DNA from: Escherichia coli
GTDB lineage: Bacteria; Pseudomonadota; Gammaproteobacteria; Enterobacterales; Enterobacteriaceae
Direction: 5' to 3' (one strand)
NCBI RefSeq assembly: GCF_011045215.1
Contig: NZ_CP049202.1
DNA length: 64,000 nucleotides
Part shown: positions 27,001 through 30,000 of the stretch, piece after piece
Layout: each line of letters starts with the position of its first letter
Position numbering within the stretch: position 1 is the stretch's first letter
Made by a program: the position numbers

Positions 27001-30000
27001 TTTATACTTCGGAATCATGTTTAAGTAGGTGTCAGACATGGTATATTTCCTCTTAAATTAGTTGGCGTTGCTACTTGAAATCTATATATTGTCGGTTGTA
27101 GTTCTTCCCGATTTGCGGGTTTTATTGCGTTCCATATATTCGGTGATTTCGTGCTTGTACCATTTCTGGTGCAATCCTTTTACCTGAGGCGTGAATGGCT
27201 GCGGAAAACCGGGAATACTATCGAGCCATTTGGTGATAGTCTGGCGATGTACTCCGAACATTCTTGCCACTTCGCCGATTCCAATAATATTGTTGTCGCT
27301 CATTTCATATTCTCCAAAAAAAGAAGCGGCCCGAAAATATGATGGCGATGGGGCCGCTTTTTCTCCTGAATAATTAATGCGTGAACACCTGTTCTCTACG
27401 CTTTCTATTTTCGCGCTTAATATCTATCTTCGCAATTTTGTGCGGTTGCTGGCGGATATCATCTCTTTTTTATGCCCACTATCGATGGCTGAATTGATTA
27501 AAATTTAACCGCTAGAACAATCAAAAATGTGACGAGCAATTGATCTAAATCAATAAATTTGTAATTCTTCGTTTTCACTTTCGAATGGAAGTAAAATACA
27601 GGAAAATAAATCACCATGAAATCATACAATTAAAAATTTTGACCAACTGGTCCAAAATTTCCTCGGTGAATTCATACTTGTTACAGCCAGATGATTAATA
27701 TTTGAGCAATTGCTTTCGAATGAAAGTAAATTGATAAAAATGTCAGTGCACACTAACTAAATCGAATATTTTTTGTGCGATATTTGGATGATAATTGAGC
27801 AAAACTTTCGCAAGCCATGACGATGCAATTAATTAATTTTAAATCTACAATAAACCCATCCCCTGGTTTTAGTCTTTTGAATTTAGTTTTTTTAGGGATT
27901 CCCCATAATTTCGCGAAAAATCGACGACCTACGCCATCCTGCCAAGCAATAAAAATCATCATCCGCACAAACGCCTCAGAGCGATTCTAAGCGCCTTATC
28001 CCTACAGCCAAGCAAACGGTCAGGTATGCCGGATTTAGCTCGCCACAAGCGCGGCAGAAAACCGGGTCTGGCAGGAAGATGTTCAGTTTTTGCTGAAAGA
28101 CCTAATTTATTGATTTCTTCGAAAACCTCAAATTTGAGGTGGGCAGGATTTCATCTTTTTTCTACATCAATGTGCGTTGATGCGCCCATTTTCTTTGCGG
28201 TATCCACAGATCCCCATCCTGAGTTGGTCATACGCGAGCAGAATCATAGCCAGAACGCGCTAATTTTTGAAAGTGGTACGTTTCCATGGGTTTTCAGATT
28301 ATCGCGTCAGAATTCGATTGAGAGCGTTTCAGGAATGCTGTAGAAACAACGATCGGCCCCTTTCCCTCAGTGGTTGATCGTCCGTCTTAATCATTAAACA
28401 CGGTGTTTTACCGACTTTGGGTTTTCAGATTATCGCGTCCGGCATTCAGTCTCAGACCTTGGAAGTTGAGATCCTCAAAGAAGCGGTGGAGTATGCGCAA
28501 TCGCGAAAAACAAGCCAGATAAACGGCGTCCGAGGCGCGATGAGGCTGCGGATGCAGAAGTCTTATCGCGCATCCTGGATATCATTGGCGATATGCCAGC
28601 ATACGGGTATCGCCGTGTCTGGGCGATACTCAGGCGGCAGTTCCGAAATGAAGGACTACCGTTCGTGAATGCAAAGCGTGTTTACCGGATAATGAGCGAA
28701 AATAACCTGTTGTTGTTACATGACAAACCATCACGACAACAGCGGGAACATAAAGGCCGAATATCGGTGAAGGAAAGCGACCAGCGTTGGTGTTCCGATG
28801 GCTTTGAGTTCGGTTGCGATGATGGCGAAAAACTGCGTGTTACGTTCGTCCTGGACTGTTGCGATTGTGAAGCCATAGACTGGGCCGCAAGCTCGGGAGG
28901 TTACGATAAAGCGACAGTGCAGGATGTGATGTTAGGAGCGATAGAAAAACGCTTTGGCGATAAAGTACCGGAACAGTCCATCCAGTGGCTGACAGATAAC
29001 GGTTCAGCGTACAGAGCGCATGAAACACGGCAGTTCGCCAGAGAGTTGAATCTGAAGCCCTGCACAACGGCAATCAGTAGCCCTCAGAGTAATGGAATGG
29101 CAGAACGGTTCGTGAAAACGATGAAGGAAGACTACATCGCGTTCATGCCGAAACCGAATGTAAGAACGGCATTGCATAACCTTGCAGTGGCGATCGAGCA
29201 TTACAATGAAAACCATCCGCACAGTGCGTTGGGTTATCGCTCTCCGCGAGAATATCGACGTCAGCGGGTAACGTTAACTTAGGATACAATCCCTGTCTGG
29301 AGATAAGGGGTCAAGAACAATCGTACGGTTGGACTTTAACCCATAATTGCACAAAAGAACAAGAATTAAGTGATATTAGATATAGAGTATATTTTATACA
29401 TAAATAATATTAATTGTTATCTTATGCTTAATTTTTTGTTTGGTTTATGTTTGGTAATTGCATTGTGTATTGATGCCATAGCCGGAACAACTACTCTCAT
29501 GAGTGCGGCTCCCAGGAGGACTTATTCTGTACACGCTCAAATTGATGTCACCCGAAGTGCTGCAGTTATCAGTAAAGGGGGATATGGTGTGTATATTTTC
29601 GTAGCCAACGCGCGTACAAGTGGTAGTTCAAATTCCGATTTATCGGTAGGCCAATGTATCATGGATGGCATGCCGTTAGCAGCACGAATATTGTCAGATT
29701 CGAGACCTGGGACGAAAGTGTGGGAAATACCACCTTCGGACAACGGAAGGTACGGTTTGATAACGTGCGATGTAGCAATCACAGCCTCTGGTAATCTGGG
29801 AGCTTGGCCTGATGCTGTGGTAGAGGTTATGGATATTAATCAAGGTTATTTATCCGGCCTGACAAATGTGGATGTTACAGGGAATGTTGACGAAACGCCA
29901 CTTAGTCGTTATGTAGGCTACCAATTTATAGCACGTATTCCACAACCAACAGATTCTATGCCTGTTGTTATCAACTATGCTGATTCGGTAATGTTGGATT

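What the first reader, a model, noticed from the sequence alone, without database searches (positions are those of the whole stretch)
27570..27740. Pair of 18-20 bp direct repeats in AT-rich spacer upstream of alpA
ctttcgaatggaagtaaaata (27578) and ctttcgaatgaaagtaaattga (27712) are near-identical direct repeats about 134 bp apart in the non-coding region between alpA and the next element. They could be regulator or recombinase binding sites, or a degenerate attachment-site pair.
Basis: seen in the sequence. Interest (0 to 1): 0.3.

Follow-up and report, generated by a model that had tools for sequence, protein, structure and literature searches.

The report
Conserved repeat boxes in satellite cassette
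The two repeats are real, conserved copies of a small symmetric sequence box inside a 470-base non-coding cassette that normally sits just after the integrase gene of small E. coli phage satellites; here a decayed copy lies on a plasmid, and its function is still unknown.

Summary
None of 1000 shuffles of the region gave such a pair.

They are not loose spacer sequence upstream of alpA. They lie in a ~470-bp non-coding cassette (window 27469-27947). I found 25 distinct copies of it: in 51 of 5426 E. coli genomes, in Logan contigs and in metagenomes. It is never annotated.

In every native copy whose left flank is on the contig, it follows an integrase gene on the same strand. The integrases belong to two families only 30% identical. 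The elements are small CPZ-55-type phage satellites.

Spacing is fixed: R1-R2 is 135 bp in 21/24 copies, and R2 to a third invariant box (R3) is 92 bp in 24/25. The boxes vary less than the rest of the cassette, which is itself more conserved than synonymous sites of the adjacent int.

Each box holds the dyad CTTTC-N4-GAAAG. No conserved ORF, Rfam match or RNA covariation supports a coding or structured-RNA reading.

The attachment-site idea is refuted. An AlpA-specific operator is unlikely. Best guess: paired protein-binding boxes of a self-contained cis-acting cassette whose partner is unidentified.

The window copy was recombined into a plasmid-type satellite backbone and has lost its terminator hairpin.

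The parts
27578..27595 (+). R1: repeat box, dyad CTTTC-GAAT-GGAAG plus TAAA tail, followed by the -10-like TAAAAT at 27592-27597.
   Evidence: Present in all 24 copies that cover this position. 6 of 18 columns vary among the 14 BLAST-derived copies.
27713..27730 (+). R2: repeat box, perfect dyad CTTTC-GAAT-GAAAG plus TAAA tail. The dyad fills the promoter-proximal 14 bp of a 19-bp spacer between the -35-like TTGAGC (27702-27707) and the -10-like TAAATT (27727-27732).
   Evidence: 4 of 18 columns vary. Mean column identity 0.93-0.97.
27798..27811 (+). R3: invariant 14-mer AGCAAAACTTTCGC. It shares CTTTCG with R1 and R2 and is a near-palindrome (GCAAAA-C-TTTCGC).
   Evidence: Invariant in all 14 BLAST-derived copies. 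TTTC-to-TTTC distance from R2 is 92 bp in 24/25 copies.
27469..27947 (+). The conserved non-coding cassette that contains R1, R2 and R3.
   Evidence: 74-90% identical to unannotated DNA directly 3' of int in 51/5426 E. coli genomes, in L015/L016 and in 11 metagenome contigs.
27540..27553 (.). TTGATCTAAATCAA, a perfect match to the FNR consensus TTGAT-N4-ATCAA. In most other copies it overlaps an IHF consensus (WATCAANNNNTTR).
   Evidence: 9 or 10 of 10 consensus positions in 21 of 24 copies in a fixed-offset count; the other 3 carry ATGATCTGAATCAA shifted by a 1-nt deletion. IHF consensus in 17 copies, not in the window copy. Expected by chance about 0.05 per block (my estimate).
27639..27655 (.). 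Imperfect dyad TTGACCA-ACT-GGTCCAA, lying between R1 and R2.
   Evidence: Read. Conserved in most copies.
27859..27860 (.). Deletion point: the window copy has 0 copies of a 42-nt GC-rich hairpin unit that is present 1-3 times in the other 22 copies that reach this point.
   Evidence: The hairpin shows three compensatory pair changes in ATCC 8739-type copies.
27082..27303 (-). alpA-like HTH_17 / excisionase-like ORF, 73 aa.
27304..27468 (-). Conserved alpA upstream module: promoter-like TTGCGA-17-GAAAAT, then a terminator-like hairpin (27326-27357) with a T-run immediately before the alpA ribosome-binding site.
   Evidence: Homologous in L015, L017, L018 and L053. Homology stops at 27469-27474.
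24752..28455 (.). 3.7-kb satellite fragment: alpA-like gene, five small ORFs (99, 133, 93, 133 and 172 aa) of which one 133-aa ORF is an Sf6-type TerS, the cassette, and region X. It lies between an IS110-family element and an IS3 remnant.
   Evidence: Absent from the otherwise 99.7% identical E. coli C5 plasmid A, where the two flanks abut with a 6-bp overlap. TerS: Pfam PF20901, E = 2e-12.
27935..28060 (+). Region X: backbone sequence that in the 8.9-kb circular element CP058022.1 lies 222 bp from the alpA upstream module.
   Evidence: 86% identical to L053 3562-3688 and collinear with the alpA side.

Best explanation
R1 and R2 are two copies of a dyad-symmetric recognition box (CTTTC-N4-GAAAG followed by TAAA). 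They are held 135 bp apart, about 13 helical turns at 10.4 bp per turn. They sit in a self-contained non-coding cassette of ~470 bp that belongs to a family of small E. coli phage satellites (CPZ-55 type: int, AlpA-like regulator, HNH, Sf6-type small terminase).

I propose that the boxes are DNA binding sites for a dimeric protein. A third invariant CTTTCG box (R3) and an FNR/IHF-like site probably act with them. Occupancy of both boxes on the same face of the helix would bridge or loop the intervening DNA. This would control a cis-acting activity of the cassette. R2 sits in a promoter-like frame, filling a 19-bp spacer directly upstream of a -10-like TAAATT.

No cassette-specific protein is encoded by the elements, so the binding partner is inferred to be a host protein, a helper-phage protein or a universal satellite protein.

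Shown: the repeats are non-random, conserved, fixed in spacing and part of an exchangeable cassette. Inferred: protein binding, looping and the promoter role.

The window copy was recombined into a plasmid-type satellite backbone upstream of alpA. It has lost the terminator hairpin and lies in an IS-bounded fragment, so it is probably no longer functional.
For: Non-random pair.

25 distinct copies of the cassette were found. In each of the 22 native copies (of 24) whose left flank is on the contig, the cassette lies directly 3' of int and on the same strand.

Spacing is 135 bp in 21/24 copies and 92 bp in 24/25. Only 5 of 386 alignment columns contain a gap, at 85.6% mean identity.

The cassette is more conserved than 4-fold degenerate sites of the adjacent int (0.856 vs 0.760). 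The three boxes have 10/50 variable columns against 44.8% overall; only 4 of 20000 random column sets did as well.

Box variants break the hairpin pairing without compensation and without favouring either strand. That fits a DNA site better than an RNA stem.

There is no conserved ORF, no Rfam match, and a covariation term of about 0 outside the terminator hairpin.

The motif occurs nowhere else in complete elements.

The cassette keeps its sequence next to two int families, to TerS variants 32-95% identical and to AlpA-like variants 36-47% identical. It also occurs in a second backbone and orientation in this window. This argues for a self-contained unit with an invariant partner.

The R2 promoter-like geometry is retained: a -35-like hexamer matching 4 of 6 consensus positions in 24/25 copies, and TAAATT in 19/25.
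Against: No binding protein is identified, and no protein family is specific to cassette-bearing elements.

The consensus promoter scan found no sigma-70 site in the cassette. The R2 frame has a non-optimal 19-bp spacer, and R1 has no -35 equivalent.

The conservation comparison with int is blurred by mosaic recombination: some pairs have 98% identical int but only 86% identical cassettes.

The metagenome copies were retrieved with a pattern that required R2 and R3, so they cannot count toward conservation of those boxes.

An unstructured regulatory RNA cannot be excluded with sequence alone.

K-12 CPZ-55 and the plasmid-type relatives function, or at least persist, without the cassette.
Confidence: 0.4

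Rival explanations
1. The cassette is an independent non-coding RNA gene. The boxes act in RNA, as seed or protein-binding motifs. For example, a transcript could start just downstream of R2, or at R3, and end at the GC hairpin plus U-tract. R3 (AGCAAAACUUUCGC) would be a conserved single-stranded seed.
For: The cassette is bracketed by terminator-like hairpins: the int terminator on the left, and a hairpin unit with three compensatory changes plus U-rich tails on the right. The architecture is an invariant 14-mer, then a linker that exists in three divergent versions, then a structurally conserved hairpin. The cassette is autonomous, with no cassette-specific protein, and moves between backbones. 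PGAP never annotates it.
Against: No Rfam family matches, even at E up to 5. No convincing conserved sigma-70 promoter was found. The U-tract on the + strand starts 5 nt after the stem, and the more canonical terminator faces the - strand. RNAalifold finds no covariation outside the hairpin. The 330 nt upstream of R3 are as conserved as R3's surroundings, which a short sRNA would not explain.
Confidence: 0.22
2. The cassette is a packaging (pac) or replication-initiation site of the satellite. R1, R2 and R3 are recognition boxes for the satellite's Sf6-type small terminase or for a helper-phage protein, assembled with IHF. This would be analogous to lambda cosB R sites, or to the PLE non-coding region next to int that holds ori and pac.
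For: All these satellites encode their own TerS and so need a cis site. The cassette combines repeated boxes, an IHF/FNR-like site, AT-rich DNA, strict spacing and insulation from transcription. There is a precedent for a satellite's cis sites lying in a non-coding region carried together with int (PMC11417361).
Against: TerS proteins of cassette-bearing elements are as little as 39% identical while the boxes do not change. Relatives with TerS but no cassette exist: L017, L018, L053 and K-12 CPZ-55. There is no similarity to any phage and no box pair in 2.9 million viral contigs. No lambda cosN or P2 cos sequence is present. There are only 2-3 widely spaced boxes and no adjacent rep gene, whereas the plasmid-type relative has classical iterons (GGTTACACATCC) next to its rep.
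Confidence: 0.15
3. The repeats are operators for the neighbouring AlpA-like protein, or arm-type sites for the integrase.
For: They lie next to alpA in this window and next to int in all native copies. AlpA of E. coli PICIs activates its own promoter (PMC6092414).
Against: The boxes lie outside the conserved alpA upstream module. In native elements alpA is 1-3 kb away. AlpA-like and Int proteins vary widely while the boxes are invariant. Close AlpA homologues occur without the cassette. Better candidates for AlpA sites are the inverted repeats 27413-27451 / 27957-27994 that flank the cassette.
Confidence: 0.08
4. The repeats have no function. They are a relic of an old internal duplication, carried along in a young, recently spread sequence.
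For: Function is unproven. The cassette is rare (about 1% of E. coli genomes) and dispensable for related elements. The window copy is visibly decaying.
Against: The cassette is more conserved than synonymous sites of int. It has almost no indels. The boxes are significantly less variable than their surroundings, and spacing is fixed across copies that differ by up to 25%.
Confidence: 0.1
5. The repeats are a degenerate attachment-site pair marking the ends of an element.
For: They are direct repeats near a mobile-element regulator gene.
Against: Both copies are interior to one cassette in all 24 copies that cover both boxes, always on the same side of int. In the eut-inserted elements the element ends are kilobases away, between eutB and int on one side and next to eutA on the other.
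Confidence: 0.01

Closest known systems
Paired operators that loop DNA (gal OE/OI, lac O1/O3), and MerR-type promoters with a dyad operator inside a 19-20 bp spacer
   Same: Two near-identical dyad sites separated by an integral number of helical turns (135 bp). The R2 dyad fills a 19-bp spacer directly upstream of a -10-like hexamer.
   Different: No cognate repressor or activator is known or encoded next to the cassette. The -35 is weak and R1 has none. The MerR comparison rests on geometry recalled from established knowledge, not on a test.
Terminase recognition repeats with an IHF site (lambda cosB R3-I1-R2-R1; EcCICFT073 cosB recognised by Rpp-TerS, PMC6739421)
   Same: Repeated boxes plus an IHF-type site in a non-coding stretch of a satellite that depends on a terminase small subunit.
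   Different: No cosN. No phage counterpart. No co-variation with TerS. Absent from TerS-bearing relatives.
PLE non-coding region carried together with int (ori plus pac; PMC11417361)
   Same: A large non-coding region that is part of the minimal element alongside the satellite's integrase and holds its cis-acting sites.
   Different: PLE's sites are validated and one mimics the helper's pac. Nothing is validated here and there is no mimicry.
P4 immunity region (seqA / seqC direct repeats paired by seqB of CI RNA)
   Same: Direct repeats of about 18 nt roughly 100-150 nt apart in a satellite's non-coding control region.
   Different: No complementary seqB-like sequence lies between the repeats or elsewhere in the element. 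No C4/CI-type Rfam match.
Divergently transcribed type I toxin-antitoxin loci (tisB/istR, zorO/orzO)
   Same: Unannotated ~0.5-kb conserved block in which a direct DNA repeat could give complementary RNAs if the two copies were transcribed in opposite directions.
   Different: No conserved small hydrophobic ORF in the cassette. No divergent promoter pair was found between R1 and R2.

Membership tests
Attachment-site (attL/attR) pair | The two copies flank the whole element, one at each end, with int inside. | tested here: not met
   Both copies lie 135 bp apart inside one cassette, 3' of int, in all 24 copies that cover both boxes.
AlpA family (Pfam PF05930 Phage_AlpA) for the neighbouring ORF | Match to the family profile above the gathering score. 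| tested here: not met
   No PF05930 hit at E <= 0.01. Best hit is HTH_17 at 20.6 bits against a cut-off of 27. The PHROG excisionase/regulator hit at 4e-7 shows it works like an AlpA/Xis-type wHTH protein.
Iteron-type replication origin | Three or more direct repeats in a tight array next to a rep gene, with an AT-rich unwinding region. | tested here: not met
   Only two full copies, 135 bp apart, with no rep gene adjacent. By contrast, GGTTACACATCC iterons lie beside the 538-aa protein of CP058022.1.
Lambda-type or P2-type cos site | cosN cleavage sequence (GGGCGGCGACCT, or the P2 19-mer). | tested here: not met
   Absent from the window and from all loci fetched up to that call (L001-L014).
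pac site of the satellite's Sf6-type TerS | Specific binding by, and packaging initiation with, the cognate TerS. | not testable with these tools
   Indirect evidence only: no co-variation with TerS, and TerS-bearing relatives exist without the cassette.
Any described RNA family (Rfam 15) | Covariance-model match. | tested here: not met
   No hit at E <= 1 in the window copy. Only noise (E = 4-5) in an intact copy.
Structured RNA in general | Compensatory base-pair changes. | tested here: inconclusive
   Covariation term +0.04 (+ strand) and -2.96 (- strand). Convincing only for the GC hairpin unit. Divergence is low, so the test has little power.
Intrinsic terminator (the 42-nt hairpin unit at the cassette's right end) | GC-rich stem followed by a U-tract; stem kept through compensatory changes. 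| tested here: met
   Met in relatives. The unit is deleted from the window copy.
Type I toxin-antitoxin locus | Conserved small hydrophobic toxin ORF. | tested here: not met
   No ORF is conserved across copies; all candidates are truncated or absent in several.
Protein-binding operator pair | Specific binding of a protein to the dyad. | not testable with these tools
   Supported only by dyad symmetry, fixed spacing and above-background conservation.

The most novel reading that the evidence does not exclude
The cassette is an autonomous, horizontally exchangeable RNA-or-DNA 'sensor' module of phage satellites. A host or helper-phage factor binds the paired dyad boxes, with R2 acting as a MerR-style 19-bp-spacer promoter. 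This switches on a ~170-nt non-coding RNA carrying the invariant R3 seed, which couples satellite behaviour to helper infection or to anaerobic gut conditions through the FNR-type box.
Probability: 0.08. Interest if true: 0.7.

Novelty: new member of a known kind. Interest (0 to 1): 0.38.

Why it matters
Small phage satellites of E. coli are mostly annotated as strings of hypothetical genes, and their cis-acting sites (packaging, induction, regulation) are largely unmapped.

This work defines a discrete, conserved, unannotated ~470-bp cassette. It has three strongly constrained boxes at fixed distances. It travels with the integrase end of CPZ-55-type satellites and can be swapped into another backbone.

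That gives experimenters a precise target for deletion, box mutation, footprinting and transcript mapping in a poorly understood satellite family, and a marker for annotation. For this particular window the consequence is modest, because the copy is a decayed passenger in an IS-bounded fragment on a plasmid.

Tried and rejected
- **Rfam scans** of the window copy and of an intact copy found nothing.
- **Phage similarity:** no match in 50,697 phage records. There was no R2 18-mer and no box pair in IMG/VR. The 11 viral hits to the R3 17-mer and the 10 hits to a generic double dyad were chance matches with no further similarity.
- **Species-representative genomes:** the R1..R2 pattern gave 0 hits. 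The looser three-box pattern gave one hit in a Methylococcaceae MAG that is a chance match, with about 0.3 expected.
- **cos sites:** lambda cosN and P2 cos are absent.
- **Coding potential:** every short ORF on either strand is broken in several copies.
- **P4-type immunity:** there is no complementary sequence for the repeats.
- **Promoters:** the consensus promoter scan found none in the cassette. My weaker position-weight scan gave only marginal candidates.
- **Cassette-specific protein partner:** none exists among nine cassette-bearing and three cassette-free elements.
- **'Simple inversion' of the native int-cassette segment:** this was my first reading. I replaced it after finding CP058022.1, which shows the window backbone is a plasmid-type satellite in which 222 bp were replaced by the cassette.
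- **Literature string search:** it found the 14-mer, with its loop reversed, only in a Salmonella pflE promoter oligonucleotide (PMC3326293). I treat this as coincidence.
- **Satellite papers:** those I read on PICI, PICMI and PLE do not describe this cassette.
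Full report
**Observation**

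The window reads CTTTCGAATGGAAGTAAA at 27578-27595 (R1) and CTTTCGAATGAAAGTAAA at 27713-27730 (R2). They are 17/18 identical and 135 bp apart start to start.

These are the only two matches in the 64-kb window even at three mismatches; 0.07 were expected. In 1000 dinucleotide-preserving shuffles of 27304-28100, no 18-mer direct pair with at most one mismatch appeared.

**Local context in the window**

The ORF called alpA (27303..27082, minus strand, 73 aa) is a small HTH_17/MerR-like protein. It reaches no Pfam gathering score and gives no Phage_AlpA hit. Its best PHROG is 'excisionase and transcriptional regulator'.

Downstream of it on the minus strand lie five small ORFs, including an Sf6-type small terminase (PF20901, E = 2e-12).

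The window as a whole is a mosaic E. coli virulence-type plasmid, 99.7% identical to plasmid A of strain C5. However, the 3.7 kb from 24752 to 28455 is missing from that plasmid, where the IS110-family element and the IS3 remnant abut with a 6-bp overlap. The repeats therefore sit in an IS-bounded fragment of a small phage satellite.

**What the repeats belong to**

Megablast and blastn show that window 27469-27947, and only that part, is 74-90% identical to DNA in 51 of 5426 complete E. coli genomes. There is one copy per genome, always chromosomal and never annotated.

In every one of the 12 such genomes I inspected, the block starts 15-140 bp after the stop codon of intZ. It lies on the same strand, inside a CPZ-55-type element inserted between eutB and eutA.

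The same block follows a different integrase (431 aa, 30% identical to IntZ) at another chromosomal site in two Logan assemblies.

A pattern scan of 241 million metagenome records returned 11 more copies. In the nine whose contig reaches past the cassette's left end, an IntZ-type integrase gene directly precedes the cassette on the same strand. Where the contig continues to the right, the order is int, cassette, variable cargo (often a YafO-type toxin-antitoxin pair on the other strand), sometimes a 75-aa HTH gene, and then the AlpA-like gene and its operon.

Two scans of one genome per species (100,044 species) found no real copy. Phage collections have none. K-12's own CPZ-55 lacks it. The block is thus a rare, E. 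coli-restricted, non-coding cassette of one satellite family.

**How the window copy got next to alpA**

My first reading was an inversion, because the operon genes match the chromosomal satellites on the opposite strand while the cassette matches on the same strand.

The 8.9-kb circular element CP058022.1 corrected this. That element has a serine recombinase, a 538-aa putative replication protein and GGTTACACATCC iterons. Window 26291-27473 (operon, alpA and its upstream module) and window 27935-28060 (region X) are collinear with it. Its intervening 222 bp are replaced in the window by the ~470-bp cassette.

The right-hand junction falls in a short shared CATCCTGCC-like stretch. The same arrangement occurs in one other public assembly.

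The conserved alpA upstream module ends exactly where the cassette begins. It consists of a promoter-like TTGCGA-17-GAAAAT, then a terminator-like hairpin directly before the ribosome-binding site. So the repeats are not part of alpA's own control region. The cassette is a unit that can be moved between backbones and orientations.

**Anatomy and constraint**

Twenty-five distinct copies were aligned.

- **Spacing.** R1-R2 is 135 bp in 21 of 24 copies and 134 bp in the other three. A third box, AGCAAAACTTTCGC (window 27798-27811, R3), shares CTTTCG with R1 and R2. It is invariant and lies 92 bp from R2 in 24 of 25 copies.
- **Indels and box conservation.** Among the 14 copies retrieved without any motif requirement, only 5 of 386 columns contain a gap. 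The three boxes have 10 of 50 variable columns against 44.8% overall, a result matched by 4 of 20000 random column sets.
- **Comparison with int.** Mean pairwise identity of the cassette (0.856) exceeds that of four-fold degenerate sites in the adjacent int gene (0.760), and approaches int as a whole (0.891). Mosaic recombination weakens this comparison.
- **Box structure.** Each of R1 and R2 contains the dyad CTTTC-GAAT-GAAAG.
- **Other motifs.** The cassette also carries TTGATCTAAATCAA (27540-27553), a perfect FNR consensus here and a 9/10 match elsewhere. It overlaps an IHF consensus in 17 copies. A second dyad, TTGACCA-ACT-GGTCCAA, lies between R1 and R2.
- **Right-end hairpin.** At its right end the cassette has a 42-nt GC-rich hairpin unit present one to three times. 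The unit shows three compensatory pair changes in the ATCC 8739 lineage and U-rich tails on both strands.

The window copy is the only one of the 23 copies covering that point with zero units, so it has lost this terminator.

**DNA site or RNA?**

- No ORF on either strand is conserved.
- Rfam gives nothing for the window copy or for an intact copy.
- RNAalifold assigns essentially no covariation outside the GC hairpin. With about 15% divergence, the power of that test is low.
- The natural variants of the R1 and R2 dyad break the pairing without compensation and favour neither strand. Examples are GGAAG in the window, AAAAG, GAAAA and ATTTC in other copies. This is what a tolerant protein site looks like, not an RNA stem.
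- The near-palindrome of R3 has a one-base centre and cannot form an RNA hairpin.
- R2 sits in a promoter-like frame: -35-like TTGAGC (TTAACC in most copies), a 19-bp spacer whose promoter-proximal 14 bp are the dyad, and -10-like TAAATT. That geometry recalls MerR-type promoters. However, the consensus scan finds no promoter and R1 has no -35 equivalent.

**Who binds?**

The proteins encoded by cassette-bearing elements vary widely while the boxes do not. There are two integrase families. TerS variants are 32-95% identical. AlpA-like proteins are 36-47% identical.

Clustering all ORFs of nine cassette-bearing and three cassette-free elements shows no family specific to the former. The motif occurs nowhere else in complete elements.

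The partner, if any, is therefore a host factor, a helper-phage factor or a universal satellite protein. Alternatively, the cassette acts on its own as RNA.

**Verdict on the interpretations**

- The attachment-site idea is refuted by position.
- Integrase arm sites and AlpA-specific operators are unlikely for the reasons above. Better AlpA-site candidates are the imperfect inverted repeats 27413-27451 / 27957-27994. These are the alpA promoter region and a degenerate inverted copy in region X, and they flank the cassette.
- A pac or ori role is possible by analogy with the PLE non-coding region carried with int (PMC11417361) and with lambda/PICI cosB (PMC6739421). It lacks support, however: there is no phage mimicry, no co-variation with TerS, and TerS-bearing relatives exist without the cassette.
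- An sRNA gene remains a serious rival. The cassette is terminator-bracketed and autonomous, and it has an invariant 14-mer followed by a variable linker and a structurally conserved hairpin.

I commit to paired protein-binding boxes that bridge about 13 helical turns within a self-contained cis-acting cassette, at about 0.4 confidence. Protein binding, looping and promoter control are inferences.

**Novelty and interest**

I found no description of this cassette in the satellite papers I read or by searching the box sequences as text strings. It is a new example of a familiar kind of feature: conserved recognition repeats in a mobile element's non-coding control region.

It is useful as a defined experimental target in an under-studied satellite family. 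It is of limited consequence for this window, where the copy is displaced and damaged.

Noticed in passing
window 27326-27357 (hairpin), T-run 27311-27325, alpA start 27303 (minus strand): A terminator-like GC hairpin plus T-run lies immediately upstream of the alpA ribosome-binding site, downstream of a promoter-like TTGCGA-17-GAAAAT. The arrangement is conserved, with stem changes, in L015, L017 and L018. It looks like a leader or attenuator that alpA transcription must read through.
   Followed up: partly
window 27413-27451 and 27957-27994: Imperfect inverted repeats (shared GCGCTTA...TTTGTGCGG) flank the cassette. They are the alpA promoter region and a degenerate inverted copy in region X, and they are also present in CP058022.1 around its 222-bp segment. 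They may be shared regulator sites of divergent promoters, or the ends of an invertible segment, since these relatives carry a ~204-aa serine recombinase.
   Followed up: partly
relatives, aligned to window 27859/27860; e.g. L007 3394-3520, L023 1940-2056: The 42-nt GC hairpin unit varies in copy number: 0 in the window, 1 in most copies, 2 in KSC9, and 3 in 1504D004 and L023. Its 4-nt loop is found in both orientations (GACA/TGTC, GTCA/TGAC), suggesting slippage and loop flipping at the palindrome.
   Followed up: partly
L053 (CP058022.1) 3690-4240; also contigs of 8.5-10.2 kb carrying P0002, P0003 and P0008-P0011: Relatives of the alpA-TerS operon exist as ~9-kb circular 'plasmids'. They carry a serine recombinase, a 538-aa putative replication protein and at least six GGTTACACATCC iterons. 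They appear to be a plasmid-like form of this satellite family, recorded as non-mobilizable plasmids.
   Followed up: partly
window 27909-27918: A perfect 10-bp palindrome TTTCGCGAAA lies just right of the cassette core. It is conserved in several chromosomal copies, with TTTTGCGCGAAAA in others, and it shares the TTTCG half-site with R1-R3.
   Followed up: no
L006 ~5520-5600 and L007 ~3610-3700, minus strand, right of the cassette: A small Cys-rich hydrophobic ORF (...FAPGY(T/M)LLCCCCLF(L/I)C..) ends about 45 nt before the cassette's hairpin on the opposite strand in ATCC 8739- and 1504D004-type elements. It is an unannotated candidate small membrane protein or toxin in the cargo slot.
   Followed up: no
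window 24752 and 28455 versus NZ_CP010123.1 13843-13848: The 3.7-kb satellite fragment is exactly absent from the otherwise 99.7% identical plasmid A of E. coli C5. There the IS110-family and IS3-remnant flanks overlap by 6 bp, so this was either a deletion there or a capture here.
   Followed up: partly
window 28287-28308 and 28418-28439: An exact 22-bp direct repeat lies in the region just before and at the start of the IS3 remnant.
   Followed up: no
PMC3326293, oligonucleotides 212a/212b (Salmonella pflE promoter): The sequence CTTTCATTCGAAAGTAATTTAAT has the same dyad arms with the loop reversed and a similar tail. It lies between an FNR site and the -10 of an anaerobically induced promoter. 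This is probably coincidence, but the cassette also carries an FNR-consensus box.
   Followed up: partly
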